Assembly: GCA_040081825.1 (NCBI GenBank)
Contig: JBEBFT010000001.1
Coordinates: 67,580-131,579, forward strand
Source of the DNA: Candidatus Peribacteraceae bacterium
Lineage (GTDB): Bacteria; Patescibacteriota; Gracilibacteria; Peribacterales; Peribacteraceae
Direction: 5' to 3'
Length of the DNA: 64,000 bases
The notes beneath the pieces were generated by a model. That model made no database searches and was not told where the DNA came from. It worked only from the letters and a program-made list of their open reading frames with translations. The position numbers were made by a program, and so were the translations under genes. This document shows positions 1,187-16,009 of the stretch, piece after piece. The stretch's first letter is position 1, and every line of letters starts with the position of its first letter.

Positions 1187-1262
1187 GGGTCGGTACCGAA
1201 GCGGGAAAACGCGGGGCAGACTGAAATCTGCTGTCGTAGGCATTCCGGGTTCGAGTCCGAAC
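1187..1262 (+). pseudogene. Decayed tRNA-Tyr-like copy upstream of the intact gene
   Basis: First 18 nt identical to tRNA-Tyr; GCAGA/TCTGC anticodon stem with a 6-nt loop; GTTCGAGTC T-loop; no 3' acceptor strand. Confidence 0.7.
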
Positions 1263-1288
1263 ACAATGAAGCTCTTTCCATCACACGT

Positions 1289-1373
1289 GGGTCGGTACCG
1301 AAGCGGTCAAACGGGGCAGACTGTAAATCTGCTGGCTATGCCTTCGCTGGTTCGAGTCCAGCCCGGCCCACCA
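1289..1373 (+). tRNA. tRNA-Tyr(GTA)
   Basis: GGGTCGG/CCGGCCC acceptor stem, CTGTAAA anticodon loop, long variable arm, GGTTCGAGTCC T-arm, encoded CCA. Confidence 0.97.
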
Positions 1374-1593
1374 TTTCACTCATCGAACAACAGATACAGT
1401 AACATTAGCAAAGGACGAGAAGTTTACCCTGAGCGAGTTCGCCGAAGGCGAACGAGTCGAAGGGAGTCCAGCCCGGCCCACCATTTCACTCATCGAACAA
1501 CAGATACAGTAACATTAGCAAAGGACGAGAAGTTTACCCTGAGCGAGTTCGCCGAAGGCGAACGAGTCGAAGGGAGTCCAGCCCGGCCCACCA
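1354..1593 (+). repeat. 110-bp tandem repeat (2 units plus a third copy of the 20-nt tRNA 3' end) containing a REP-like hairpin
   Basis: GAGTCCAGCCCGGCCCACCA at 1354, 1464 and 1574; each unit ends in CCCTGAGCGAGTTCGCCGAAGGCGAACGAGTCGAAGG. Confidence 0.95.
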
Positions 1594-7282: not shown

Positions 7283-9475
<2,193 letters not shown>

Positions 9476-15059: not shown

Positions 15060-15106
15060 TATGGCGATCGTAGCTCAGTGGGTTTCGCACCGCGAAGCGG
15101 GGCGAA
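15060..15106 (+). repeat. Duplicated tRNA-His 5' end followed by a GAA-loop hairpin
   Basis: TATGGCGATCGTAGCTCAGTGG at 15060 and 15158; TTCGCACCGC-GAA-GCGGGGCGAA. Confidence 0.85.
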
Positions 15107-15160
15107 CAAGGCAAAAGGAGGTACGCTCGCCGTCACAGATCATTCTTTCACAAGGTATAT

Positions 15161-15237
15161 GGCGATCGTAGCTCAGTGGTTAGAGCATCCGGTTGTGGTC
15201 CGGAGGGTCGTGGGTTCGATCCCCATCGGTCGCCCCA
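15161..15237 (+). tRNA. tRNA-His(GTG)
   Basis: G-1, TTGTGGT anticodon loop, GGTTCGATCCC T-arm, C73 and CCA. Confidence 0.97.
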
Positions 15238-15678
15238 TTCTGTCTTCGCGGGAAGAGTAGACGAATCGTACAACAGAGCACACGCATCGAGCGTGACGAT
15301 ACCGCTACGACGCAATGGTGCTATATTGTAGAACTATGCATTACGTCTATATTCTTGAATCACTTGCACATTCAAATCATTGGTATGTGGGTGTGACGAA
15401 CGATCTAAGGAAGAGATTAGCCCAACACAACACAGGCGACAGTGTCCACACTAACAAGTTTAAACCATGGAAAGTAAAGAATTATTTTGCTTTTGAGAAT
15501 CGAAATATTGCTGAAAATTTTGAGGCATATCTCAAGTCAAAATCTGGACGTGCGTTTTCTAAACGACATTTTCCGTCAAGAGATGAGTCGCGGCGCAGCG
15601 GTATCGCGGAATCGACTGAGAGATAGCTACCGCATCCATGATGTACTCATCCGCGAAGCCGGGCCATCGGTCGCCCCA
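15223..15678 (+). mobile_element. Candidate minimal element: GIY-YIG gene within nested inverted repeats, bounded by a 15-bp tRNA-His 3' direct repeat
   Basis: CCATCGGTCGCCCCA at 15223 and 15664; inverted repeats 15244-15259/15644-15658 and 15297-15313/15590-15606. Confidence 0.65.
15336..15626 (+). CDS. Stand-alone GIY-YIG nuclease
   Basis: YVYILES...WYVGVTNDLRKRLAQHN...FEAYLKS. Confidence 0.92.
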   Translation: MHYVYILESLAHSNHWYVGVTNDLRKRLAQHNTGDSVHTNKFKPWKVKNYFAFENRNIAENFEAYLKSKSGRAFSKRHFPSRDESRRSGIAESTER

Positions 15679-15685
15679 GAAATAA

Positions 15686-15775
15686 AGCATGAAAGGAAAG
15701 CTACGGTTTCCTCTCATGAGCTCTCCTTCCCTTAAGTGGAGTCGCTCCAGACCACAGCAAGTGTGGTCTTCGCGA
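15686..15775. repeat. Structured ~90-nt dispersed repeat, copy 3 (inverted relative to copies 1 and 2)
   Basis: Reverse complement TCGCGAAGACCACACTTGCTGTGGTCTGGAGC...GGAAGGAGAGCTCATGAGAGGAAACCGTAGCTTTCCTTTCATGCT. Confidence 0.8.
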
Positions 15776-16009
15776 GAATTAGTCATGTATCCGCTTGGTC
15801 CTGAGGGTCTTAGGGTTGCTTCTCCATTAGTTGCTCCTTTCGATTCGGATCCTCCAGAGCATTGCTAGTAGCCTACCGCCTTCGTCCTGTGACCAGAATC
15901 TCCAATTCGAAGAGCTATCGTACGGGGCTATGGACTGAAGACGAAAAAAGCACTAGAATAAGCCAATTGTATAGAATTGACTAAAAAGTGAATAAATTGT
16001 ACAATACTT

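What the first reader, a model, noticed from the sequence alone, without database searches (positions are those of the whole stretch)
15223..15678. GIY-YIG mini-element at tRNA-His: candidate autonomous member of a gene-end-duplicating mobile system
Seen: a ~96-aa stand-alone GIY-YIG nuclease is enclosed by two nested imperfect inverted repeats (CTTCGCGGGAAGAGTA/TACTCATCCGCGAAG and CGATACCGCTACGACGC/GCGGCGCAGCGGTATCG). The unit is bounded by an exact 15-bp direct repeat of the tRNA-His 3' end, and no integrase or transposase is present. Known: tRNA 3' duplications normally mark integrase-driven islands, and GIY-YIG domains nick DNA in homing endonucleases. Inference: this is a ~440-bp integrase-free element in which the nuclease nicks at or near hairpins and repair installs a replacement gene end. 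The hairpin-only inserts at tRNA-Tyr and gyrB would be non-autonomous derivatives.
Basis: partly seen in the sequence, partly recalled or inferred. Interest (0 to 1): 0.8.

Follow-up and report, generated by a model that had tools for sequence, protein, structure and literature searches.

The report
Tiny GIY-YIG nuclease cassette at tRNA-His
A 0.4-kb cassette made of one minimal DNA-cutting enzyme gene between hairpins sits at the end of the histidine tRNA gene; it belongs to a barely described family found at tRNA gene ends in many bacterial phyla, and in this tiny-genome bacterium gene-less hairpin copies have replaced the ends of tRNA and protein genes.

Summary
In detail: a 96-aa single-domain GIY-YIG gene (15336-15626) lies between two nested inverted repeats, and the unit is bounded by an exact 15-nt repeat of the tRNA-His 3' end. 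No integrase is present. It is not a one-off. All 4 Ssn-like GIY-YIG genes of this 1.08-Mb Peribacteria genome abut tRNA genes. 16 of 43 tRNA/tmRNA genes carry exact terminal duplicates of 15 nt or more, against 5 of 1891 control segments. Among relatives of the protein in other phyla, 53 of the 80 best loci have a same-strand tRNA 65-448 nt upstream, joined by a conserved nested-hairpin leader that follows the CCA. Only 2 of 17 related genomes have a GIY-YIG gene at tRNA-His. ORF-less hairpin modules of two families sit at tRNA ends and at ends of protein genes (gyrB, map, yebC). At the protein genes the displaced copy differs from the working copy almost only synonymously (32 of 39 differences; simulation mean 5.4), so the two ends come from diverged functional alleles. 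Best reading: an integrase-free, nuclease-plus-hairpin selfish cassette family that spreads by recombinational copying together with the adjoining conserved gene end. The cutting and copying steps are inferred, not shown. This scan noted the same family before on other DNA. The closest published relative is the Ssn ssDNA nuclease family, whose paper does not mention tRNA.

The parts
15060..15081 (+). Displaced stub of the tRNA-His 5' end (4 upstream nt, G-1 and nt 1-18, ending at the D-loop GG)
   Evidence: Exact 22-nt direct repeat with 15158-15179 (D1). The same layout occurs at tRNA-His in 4 other genera.
15082..15157 (+). 76-bp 5'-type ORF-less module: a junction hairpin (about 15082-15106), then a leader running into the intact tRNA
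   Evidence: Read. Related modules lie upstream of tRNA-Arg(tct), Ile(tat), Met, Lys(ctt), Cys and Ala(ggc).
15162..15237 (+). Intact tRNA-His(GTG), the only tRNA-His of the genome
   Evidence: ARAGORN; Rfam tRNA, 64.1 bits.
15238..15335 (+). Left end of the cassette, starting at the base after CCA; outer IR arm 15244-15259, inner IR arm 15297-15313
   Evidence: I2. The same left-end motifs follow tRNA-His in G014, G017 and G010 and in L080 and L082.
15336..15626 (+). GIY-YIG single-domain nuclease gene (96 aa; the family core is about 78 aa, and this copy reads on into the right-end repeat)
   Evidence: Pfam PF01541, E 2.4e-14. Y5, Y17, R27, H31 and E63 are invariant in 14 homologues. Best PDB match is UPF0213 BH0048 (1zg2), E 1.5e-5.
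15590..15663 (+). Right end of the cassette: inner IR arm 15590-15606, outer IR arm 15644-15658, terminal motif CGAAGCCGGG
   Evidence: The same terminal motif ends the ORF-less family-B modules at tRNA-Ile(tat) and tRNA-Thr(cgt).
15664..15678 (+). Displaced copy of the last 15 nt of tRNA-His (direct repeat)
   Evidence: D6: 15 of 15 identical.
15679..15779 (+).
   Evidence: Query positions 1686-1780 match 7 other places in this genome and many places in 10 or more relatives. The BoxC/PIT label comes from note e1-4394483 and was not tested here.
15780..15840 (+). Decayed older tRNA-His 3' half, left from an earlier displacement
   Evidence: 15796-15814 is 84% identical to tRNA positions 15196-15214 (D3). 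The collinear alignment was read.

Best explanation
The region is one copy of a family of minimal, integrase-free selfish cassettes. Each is a single-domain GIY-YIG nuclease gene of about 79-96 aa (Ssn/UPF0213-like, Slx1 lineage) plus nested hairpin ends, attached to the end of a tRNA or tmRNA gene. Here the cassette lies in the 3' part of tRNA-His. A complete 3' end precedes it, so the only tRNA-His stays intact, and the displaced last 15 nt follow it. The proposed mechanism is inferred. The nuclease recognises hairpin or single-stranded DNA structures at cassette ends, as published Ssn enzymes do. The cut end is repaired by copying the cassette from a filled copy, or from incoming DNA, using the adjoining highly conserved gene as the homology arm. 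The far junction forms at the cassette's hairpin end, so the resident gene end is pushed aside as a repeat. ORF-less hairpin modules (family B for this type; family A and a 5' type for other subfamilies) would be moved in trans. Shown: the architecture, its recurrence, the tRNA association, the patchy presence, the absence of an integrase, and the foreign origin of the displaced gene ends. Inferred: cleavage, strandedness and the repair pathway.
For: (1) Genome-wide: 7 PF01541 hits. Four are Ssn-like genes, all co-oriented beside tRNAs (His, Ser-gct, Pro-ggg downstream; Leu-caa upstream). Two are UPF0213-like genes 95-255 bp from tRNAs. One is a 786-aa frame, taken to be UvrC (not checked). 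(2) 16 of 43 tRNA/tmRNA genes have exact end duplicates of 15 nt or more, against 5 of 1891 controls. (3) Family level: 55 of 61 Peribacteraceae genomes have at least one copy, up to 11. Of the 29 best loci, 20 have a same-strand tRNA within 500 bp upstream, and these are different tRNAs. (4) Other phyla: 53 of the 80 best loci have a same-strand tRNA 65-448 bp upstream, including the complete genomes of Thalassospira lucentensis and Rhodopseudomonas palustris BisB18; one further locus is at a tmRNA. (5) Leader: 60 of 69 distinct leaders start with the same 4-nt pattern right after CCA; in 33 of 69 the first 10 nt have a 9/10 or better complementary partner, against 8 of 1380 shuffles. (6) Patchy presence at tRNA-His: a GIY-YIG gene in 2 of 17 relatives. 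On the protein tree the neighbouring tRNA changes 41 times among 73 labelled rows. (7) The four tRNA-His cassettes (window, L075, L080, L082) have repeats matching their own tRNA at 15/15, 21/21, 19/19 and 21/21, although these tRNA ends differ between genomes and the non-repeat cassette DNA has diverged. The repeat is therefore renewed or constrained. (8) Displaced protein-gene ends: 32 of 39 differences lie in codons that stay synonymous; simulation mean 5.4, maximum 15 in 20,000. (9) None of 150 flanking frames from 87 loci hits an integrase, transposase or RT family; the genome has one tyrosine recombinase and no RT hit. (10) Published Ssn enzymes are single-domain GIY-YIG ssDNA nucleases flanked by hairpin repeats in an IS-like layout (PMC11893778, passages read).
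Against: There is no direct evidence of cutting or movement. Only the probable source sample holds the locus, and its contigs show no allele without the cassette. Proteins cluster largely by phylum (10 label changes, minimum 5, shuffled mean 40.4), so much of the inheritance is vertical within phyla and a domesticated role is possible. A tRNA-end repeat after the ORF occurs in only 8 of 53 wider loci and 4-5 of 20 family loci. The published Ssn hairpin motif is not enriched: 5 hits in the genome against 5-10 in shuffles, and 2 of 80, 2 of 29 and 1 of 29 loci. The exact repeats at tRNA-His fit a target-derived duplication better than a carried foreign end. The strict family-A core lies upstream of a GIY-YIG gene in only 2 of 29 loci. 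The Pro-ggg copy has an internal TAG.
Confidence: 0.55

Rival explanations
1. Domesticated host module. The nuclease and its hairpins are no longer mobile; they serve the cell, for example by trimming incoming single-stranded DNA at conserved loci, as proposed for Neisseria SsnA. The tRNA position would give expression from tRNA promoters.
For: Catalytic residues are conserved in 14 of 14 aligned homologues. Proteins cluster by phylum. The published Ssn function is modulation of transformation. Most loci lack a terminal repeat.
Against: Copy number ranges from none found to 11 per ~1-Mb genome, and copies lie beside different tRNAs. Tandem arrays and ORF-less copies occur. At least one copy is interrupted: the Pro-ggg copy has an internal TAG. 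Only 2 of 17 relatives have it at tRNA-His.
Confidence: 0.15
2. Cut-and-insert transposition with a long target-site duplication. A nuclease makes staggered cuts in the tRNA T-arm and at its 3' end (or in the D-loop and at the 5' end), and fill-in creates the repeat. No foreign gene end is carried.
For: The repeats at tRNA-His match the resident tRNA exactly in 4 of 4 genomes even though those tRNAs differ. Most tRNA repeats in this genome are exact. The left junction falls at the base after CCA.
Against: Repeat length varies from 12 to 24 nt and more, up to a whole tRNA-Gln in Thalassospira. Displaced protein-gene ends differ from the working ends by synonymous changes far beyond neutral expectation, which a fresh target duplication cannot give. 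GIY-YIG enzymes hydrolyse DNA and are not known to transfer strands (general knowledge).
Confidence: 0.15
3. RNA-level feature. The leader is a structured RNA (a processing signal or tRNA-like element) co-transcribed with the tRNA. The nuclease gene hitch-hikes on tRNA transcription, and the repeats are debris of tRNA gene duplications.
For: The leader starts at the base after CCA and folds strongly: about -18 to -77 kcal/mol for 65-140 nt (excluding one 41-nt leader at -5.7). The sense strand is the more stable in 44 of 69 leaders.
Against: The strand bias is weak: the other strand is more stable in 25 of 69, and the mean difference is 1.9 kcal/mol. No Rfam family matches in 20 loci. The same hairpin cores lie at protein-gene 5' ends on the opposite strand to the gene. 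Published Ssn binds ssDNA, not RNA.
Confidence: 0.08
4. Remnant of a larger tyrosine-integrase island that integrated into tRNA-His and then decayed to 0.4 kb.
For: A direct repeat of a tRNA 3' end is the classic scar of integrase-driven islands (general knowledge).
Against: The unit has no integrase, and the genome has a single tyrosine recombinase on another contig. The same 0.3-0.45-kb unit recurs at many tRNAs with ordinary housekeeping neighbours, and 0 of 150 flanking frames hit an integrase family. 5'-end versions also exist.
Confidence: 0.03

Closest known systems
Ssn family of single-domain GIY-YIG site-specific ssDNA nucleases with NTS/SRM hairpin repeats (PMC11893778; passages and Supplementary Data 4 read)
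   Same: A stand-alone GIY-YIG protein of about 80-100 aa with no DNA-binding domain. Catalytic Tyr, Tyr and Glu at almost the same positions (Y6, Y17, E64 there; Y5, Y17, E63 here). The gene is flanked by hairpin-forming inverted repeats in an IS-like layout, and ORF-less hairpin copies are scattered in the genome.
   Different: The word tRNA does not occur in that paper's main text. Its SRM search motif is not enriched here. Here the hairpins are nested pairs starting at the tRNA's CCA, and the cassettes and hairpin modules are bounded by duplicated gene ends. Membership of cd10448 could not be tested.
Free-standing GIY-YIG homing endonucleases of T-even phages, especially SegB in the T4 tRNA gene cluster (PMC2330249 and PMC13096335; abstracts seen in the listing)
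   Same: A GIY-YIG gene lying among tRNA genes that spreads by cutting and recombinational repair, with co-conversion of flanking DNA. No integrase or transposase is involved.
   Different: Seg proteins are larger and carry DNA-binding modules (recalled, not tested). They are phage-borne, and hairpin ends, gene-end repeats and ORF-less derivatives are not reported for them.
Mobile GIY-YIG ORFs of fungal mitochondria that insert at gene 3' ends and carry a replacement gene end
   Same: An endonuclease ORF inserted at the end of a conserved gene, with a new functional gene end proximal and the displaced old end distal. The two ends differ as diverged alleles do.
   Different: Those are organellar and their targets are protein genes. 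Here the targets are mainly tRNA and tmRNA genes of bacteria, the enzyme is a minimal single domain, and hairpin-only derivatives do most of the gene-end replacement.
tRNA/tmRNA-targeting integrative islands and phages (tyrosine integrases; recalled general knowledge)
   Same: The target is the 3' part of a tRNA or tmRNA gene; the gene is restored and the displaced end remains as a direct repeat; serial insertions stack repeats.
   Different: No integrase is present. The units are 0.1-0.45 kb, the junction position in the tRNA varies, 5'-end versions exist, and protein-gene ends are also targeted.

Membership tests
GIY-YIG nuclease superfamily (Pfam PF01541) | Profile match above the curated cut-off | tested here: met
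   53.8 bits against a cut-off of 22.6, E 2.4e-14.
GIY-YIG nuclease superfamily (Pfam PF01541) | Conserved catalytic Tyr (GIY), Tyr (YIG), Arg and Glu | tested here: met
   Y5, Y17, R27, H31 and E63 are invariant in 14 aligned homologues.
Ssn family (CDD cd10448) | Single-domain protein of about 80-100 aa with no added DNA-binding domain | tested here: met
   96 aa here and 75-100 aa in 28 of the 29 relatives translated (one 39-aa truncated frame). The only Pfam hits are GIY-YIG and overlapping T5orf172/MUG113 hits.
Ssn family (CDD cd10448) | Match to the cd10448 position-specific matrix | not testable with these tools
   No CDD library is on hand. Indirect only: T. lucentensis is listed as having an SsnA homologue above 60% identity. 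That species has two small GIY-YIG genes, one of them 63% identical to the window protein.
Ssn family (CDD cd10448) | Gene flanked by SRM/NTS hairpin motifs as defined by the published search pattern | tested here: not met
   5 hits in the genome against 5-10 in shuffles, none at the GIY-YIG genes. 2 of 80, 2 of 29 and 1 of 29 loci have any hit. Other nested hairpins flank the genes instead.
Ssn family (CDD cd10448) | Site-specific cleavage of single-stranded DNA next to the hairpin | not testable with these tools
   Needs an enzyme assay.
UPF0213 / bacterial Slx1-like lineage | Sequence similarity to solved UPF0213 proteins | tested here: met
   1zg2 E 1.5e-5; 1ywl E 0.0093; Slx1 chains E 0.03-0.34. 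The similarity is weak but is the best in the PDB.
Free-standing homing endonucleases (Seg / I-TevI type) | GIY-YIG domain joined to a C-terminal DNA-binding region | tested here: not met
   The protein ends after the nuclease domain. NCBIfam gives only sub-threshold hits to the group I intron endonuclease model: 16-24 bits against a cut-off of 56.
Free-standing homing endonucleases (Seg / I-TevI type) | Spread with co-conversion of flanking host sequence | tested here: inconclusive
   Displaced ends at protein genes differ synonymously from the working ends, as co-conversion from diverged donors would give. For this cassette the two copies are identical.
Tyrosine-integrase island at a tRNA gene | Integrase gene inside the repeat-bounded unit or next to it | tested here: not met
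   0 of 150 flanking frames from 87 related loci (150 of the 303 frames of 170 aa or more were scanned).
Tyrosine-integrase island at a tRNA gene | Direct repeat of the tRNA 3' end | tested here: met
   D6.
MITE / classical transposon | Terminal inverted repeats plus a fixed-length target-site duplication | tested here: not met
   Inverted repeats are present. The repeats, however, vary from 12 to 24 nt and more, and at protein genes they are diverged alleles.

The most novel reading that the evidence does not exclude
These are among the smallest autonomous mobile DNA elements: one 79-aa structure-specific nuclease plus two hairpins. They are spread across at least five bacterial phyla and use the most conserved genes (tRNA, tmRNA, gyrB, map) as portable homology arms. 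By moving together with the adjoining gene end they repeatedly overwrite the ends of essential genes with alleles from other lineages. That would be an unrecognised route of inter-lineage gene conversion, and very active in CPR bacteria. Each subfamily would pair a nuclease with its own hairpin code.
Probability: 0.35. Interest if true: 0.85.

Novelty: new variant of a known kind. Interest (0 to 1): 0.75.

Why it matters
If the reading holds, tRNA and tmRNA gene ends in many phyla host a class of nuclease-only selfish cassettes. These need no integrase or transposase, which would extend the known ways DNA can be mobile. It would give the recently described Ssn-type ssDNA nucleases a natural genomic context and a testable selfish role. 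It would explain the many tRNA fragments and odd repeats in CPR genomes, where 16 of 43 RNA genes are affected here. It would also show that the ends of essential protein genes are being replaced by foreign alleles through about 50-100-bp hairpin modules. Finally, the paired nuclease and hairpin specificities could serve as ssDNA tools.

Tried and rejected
- **Known RNA families.** Rfam at permissive threshold on 20 tRNA loci with inserts found only tRNA and tmRNA, with sub-threshold noise on the tRNAs. My hammerhead and k-turn readings of the family-A core therefore have no support.
- **Sequencing runs.** No RNA holder is listed. Only the probable source sample holds the whole stretch. Three other runs hold short identical pieces or the tRNA. 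There are no joints, so neither empty alleles nor expression could be assessed.
- **Published SRM and NTS motifs.** Not enriched.
- **NCBIfam.** Sub-threshold hits only.
- **Locus search with the 14-sequence alignment.** I repeated it with a 5-sequence alignment, so the wider survey covers the His-type subfamily only.
- **Strand asymmetry of leader folding.** Weak: 44 against 25. It does not decide between RNA and DNA.
- **Strict family-A core upstream of UPF0213-like genes.** Found in only 2 of 29 loci. I saw looser variants by eye in about 9 more but did not count them by a rule.
- **Literature.** Searches found no description of GIY-YIG cassettes at bacterial tRNA ends. One search was wasted on a badly chosen prefix. 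The Peribacteria genome paper (PMC4736985; passages read) does not mention them.
- **Integrase-island reading.** Rejected.
Full report
**Observation.** The window holds tRNA-His(GTG) at 15162-15237. Immediately after its CCA lies a 426-bp unit (15238-15663), followed by an exact copy of the last 15 nt of the tRNA at 15664-15678 (D6). The unit contains one ORF, 15336-15626, of 96 aa (103 aa from an upstream ATG). It matches Pfam GIY-YIG with E 2.4e-14. An inner inverted repeat (15297-15313 / 15590-15606, 88% complementary) and an outer one with an indel (15244-15259 / 15644-15658) enclose the ORF. The flanking 321-aa and 880-aa ORFs have no Pfam hit.

It missed three features. A 22-nt exact repeat of the tRNA 5' end (15060-15081 / 15158-15179) brackets a 76-bp hairpin module upstream (D1). 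A multicopy repeat lies at about 15679-15779. A decayed older tRNA-His 3' half lies at about 15780-15840 (D3). The locus has therefore been invaded several times from both sides.

**The genome.** The window lies in a 1.08-Mb, 14-contig assembly with 42 tRNAs and one tmRNA. Earlier notes call it an uncultured Peribacteria (CPR) bacterium, and the closest named relatives of the protein are Peribacteria/Peregrinibacteria bins. Pfam GIY-YIG rings 7 times:
- Four small Ssn-like genes, all co-oriented with an adjacent tRNA: downstream of His, Ser-gct and Pro-ggg, and upstream of Leu-caa.
- Two UPF0213/YhbQ-like genes, 95 and 255 bp from tRNA-Glu(ctc) and tRNA-Arg(cct) in divergent orientation.
- One 786-aa frame, taken to be UvrC (not checked).

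The Ser-gct cassette ends in a degenerate copy of the tRNA 3' end. The Leu-caa cassette is a tandem 360-bp unit carrying a duplicated 24-nt tRNA 5' end, and it runs off the contig.

Beyond the ORF-bearing copies, 16 of 43 tRNA/tmRNA genes have an exact copy of 15 nt or more of their own 5' or 3' end within 600 bp on the matching side; 21 of 43 do at 12 nt or more. Random 77-nt segments give 5 and 8 of 1891 (details). The inserts are about 75-130 bp, sometimes in tandem, and fall into three families:
- Family B has the same left and right terminal motifs as the tRNA-His cassette. It occurs at Ile-tat, Thr-cgt and Ser-gga.
- Family A has an invariant CCTGAGCGA...GAGTCGAAGG frame around a variable hairpin, and it abuts the displaced copy. 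It occurs at Tyr x2, Gly-tcc, Leu-gag, Glu-ttc and Pro-tgg x2.
- A 5' type follows a stub that ends in the D-loop.

Rfam recognises none of them.

**Relatives.** One genome per genus was searched. Of the 19 loci fetched, 17 hold a tRNA-His gene.
- One (G014) has an orthologous cassette downstream: 66% protein identity and a 21-nt repeat.
- One (G010) has a different GIY-YIG gene upstream, with a duplicated 5' end.
- Four have 5' hairpin modules and one has a family-B module.
- Two carry left-end-like DNA without an ORF.
- The rest are plain.

The gene is therefore not vertically fixed at this site.

Across 61 Peribacteraceae genomes, 55 have at least one copy, up to 11. Of the 29 best loci, 20 have a same-strand tRNA within 500 bp upstream. 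A further 2 or 3 are of the upstream (5') kind, and 2 of the remainder are cut by contig ends. Close homologues (50-67% identity) sit behind His, Thr, Leu-taa, Leu-caa, Gly-tcc, Gly-gcc, Ala, Lys, Pro, Gln and Val.

A pattern scan of one genome per species found 579 relatives of the His-type protein. The 80 best come from Peregrinibacteria, Alphaproteobacteria, Acidobacteriota, Lentisphaerota, Verrucomicrobiota and others. Four of these loci are the same places as family loci. 53 of the 80 have a same-strand tRNA 65-448 bp upstream. Seven of the other 27 have less than 320 bp of upstream DNA, and one (L083) proved to lie at a tmRNA that ARAGORN had missed. In Thalassospira the cassette lies between two full tRNA-Gln genes. 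In R. palustris BisB18 only the close homologue, not five more distant small GIY-YIG genes, is beside a tRNA.

**The leader.** Between the CCA and the ATG lies a conserved structured segment.
- 60 of 69 distinct leaders begin with the same 4-nt pattern.
- 58 of 69 have an (A/G)(A/T)TG(C/T)C-type spacer motif.
- 36 of 69 end in an ...AAGNCGG(G/A)C motif.
- In 33 of 69 the first 10 nt have a 9/10 or better complementary partner downstream, against 8 of 1380 shuffles.

The pairing partners co-vary between loci. Predicted folding energies are about -18 to -77 kcal/mol, apart from one 41-nt leader at -5.7. The sense strand is the more stable in 44 of 69, a weak bias. In most loci both hairpin halves precede the ORF. 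In the tRNA-His lineage (window, G014/L075, L080, L082) the ORF lies between them and the tRNA-end repeat follows. A repeat after the ORF is seen in 8 of 53 wider loci.

**Is it active?** Two lines of evidence bear on this.

First, the four tRNA-His cassettes have repeats identical to their own tRNA (15/15, 21/21, 19/19, 21/21). Yet the tRNA ends differ between these genomes in the acceptor stem, and the unconstrained cassette DNA has diverged beyond recognition. A neutral relic of an ancestral insertion would have decayed, so the repeat is either regenerated or constrained.

Second, family-A cores also sit at ends of protein genes:
- the gyrB 3' end in the window (new end 9362-9397, core 9421-9438, old end 9439-9475);
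- the 3' end of a gene whose tail resembles methionine aminopeptidase (identified by eye only);
- the 5' ends of a YebC-like gene and another gene elsewhere in the genome;
- the same kinds of sites in other genera.

In 8 such pairs, 32 of 39 nucleotide differences lie in codons that stay synonymous. Random mutation of the same number of sites gives a mean of 5.4 and never more than 15 in 20,000 trials. Both copies therefore evolved as working coding ends, in different lineages, before being joined. That is what a cassette bringing a donor's gene end would produce, and what a fresh target duplication would not.

The exact-pattern family-A core occurs in 41 of 61 family genomes (87 hits outside this genome plus 10 in it), against 0 for the reversed control pattern.

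**Link between hairpins and nucleases.** Family B is the terminal structure of the His-type cassettes. In the Acidobacteriota locus L083, a tmRNA 3' end is followed, in order, by:
- a family-A core and, 15 nt later, a UPF0213-like GIY-YIG gene (Pfam E 1.5e-16);
- a repeat of the tmRNA end;
- a family-B leader and a His-type GIY-YIG gene;
- another family-A core and a partial copy of the first gene.

In Peribacteraceae the strict family-A core precedes a UPF0213-like gene in 2 of 29 loci. I noticed looser variants in several more but did not count them by a rule. So each hairpin family appears to belong to its own nuclease subfamily. The tRNA-Tyr and gyrB inserts are not derivatives of the tRNA-His element itself.

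**What it is not.** The genome has a single tyrosine recombinase, on contig 1, and no reverse transcriptase hit. None of the 150 longest flanking frames (of 303 frames of 170 aa or more) from 87 related loci hits an integrase, transposase or RT family. The neighbours are housekeeping genes such as HisRS, EF-Tu, MreB and thymidylate synthase.

**The protein.** The best solved relatives are UPF0213 proteins (1zg2, E 1.5e-5) and, weakly, Slx1. Y5, Y17, R27, H31 and E63 are invariant. The closest published family is Ssn: single-domain GIY-YIG enzymes that cut single-stranded DNA next to a hairpin repeat and whose genes are flanked by such repeats like an insertion sequence (PMC11893778; passages and Supplementary Data 4 read). 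That paper's main text never mentions tRNA, and its search motif is not enriched here. Membership of cd10448 could not be tested.

On a FastTree of 109 rows with few columns, the proteins group mostly by phylum (10 changes, minimum 5, shuffled mean 40.4). The neighbouring tRNA changes 41 times among 73 labelled rows; the first five shuffles gave 58-62. The family is therefore old and largely vertical between phyla, but it hops between tRNA genes within lineages.

**Mechanism, with its status.**
- Shown: the architecture, its recurrence, the tRNA/tmRNA association, the patchy occupancy, the lack of a recombinase, and the foreign origin of displaced protein-gene ends.
- Inferred: the nuclease cuts hairpin or single-stranded structures at cassette ends or targets. 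Repair copies the cassette together with the adjoining conserved gene end. The conserved gene supplies the homology, and the far junction forms at the hairpin end.

The exact tRNA repeats fit a target-derived duplication equally well, so I keep that variant as a rival. A domesticated role, as proposed for Neisseria SsnA, is also not excluded.

**Earlier notes of this scan.** These describe the same cassette family at tRNA and tmRNA ends in at least five other genomes, including 5' versions, a 20-nt palindrome, and the Ssn link. My calls reach the same reading independently. They add the synonymous-difference test, the resident-tRNA tracking of the repeats, and the pairing of hairpin families with nuclease subfamilies.

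**Literature.** I found no published description of GIY-YIG cassettes at bacterial tRNA ends in the searches.

Noticed in passing
window 1187-1593: tRNA-Tyr (1289-1373) is followed by two identical 110-bp family-A units, each ending in a 20-nt copy of the tRNA 3' end (cores 1428-1463 and 1538-1573; copies 1464-1483 and 1574-1593). It is preceded by an older partial tRNA-Tyr-like copy starting at 1187.
   Followed up: partly
window 9362-9475: The gyrB 3' end (last 36 nt including the stop) is duplicated 78 bp downstream, with a minimal family-A core (9421-9438) abutting the old copy. All 4 differences are synonymous third-position changes.
   Followed up: yes
genome contigs C9:43463-43504, C14:75443-75486, C7:39484-39518 (outside the window): Family-A cores at the 3' end of a gene whose tail resembles methionine aminopeptidase, and at the 5' ends of a YebC-like gene and another gene. 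Each has a displaced copy of the gene end that encodes the same or nearly the same peptide. The same genes are hit in other genera (L183, L193, L186).
   Followed up: yes
genome C13:92660-92680, C9:32840-32870, C10:102500-102540; also L042: A 19-20-nt GC palindrome (CCTGCC...GGCAGG type) sits inside displaced, dead tRNA fragments: at position 24/25 of old tRNA-Leu, in the T-loop of old tRNA-Thr, and in an old tRNA-His stub in G009. It also lies inside the 5' module upstream of tRNA-Cys. I never saw it inside a working tRNA.
   Followed up: partly
genome C8:10392-10527: The tmRNA gene also has a 13-nt copy of its 3' end 123 bp downstream, and a family-B-like hairpin lies 52 bp from its other end.
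   Followed up: no
genome C14:31508-31805: Three tandem 95-bp 5'-type units lie upstream of tRNA-Thr(tgt).
   Followed up: no
L083 (Acidobacteriota bin) 605-1940: A stack of at least three GIY-YIG cassettes of two subfamilies lies behind a tmRNA gene, each with its own hairpin type and a repeat of the tmRNA end. ARAGORN did not call this tmRNA, so other loci scored as having no tRNA may also be tmRNA sites.
   Followed up: partly
L149, L055, L100 (Peribacteria tRNA-Thr(cgt) loci): dprA, the mediator of transforming single-stranded DNA, is the neighbouring gene in three cassette-bearing tRNA-Thr loci. This is probably plain synteny, but it is worth a look given the Ssn link to transformation.
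   Followed up: no
window 15679-15779 and 7 other places in the genome: A multicopy repeat of about 65-95 bp with purine and pyrimidine runs around a hairpin, shared with many Peribacteraceae genomes and often next to tRNA genes (Asp, Asn, Glu-ttc, Ile-gat).
   Followed up: partly
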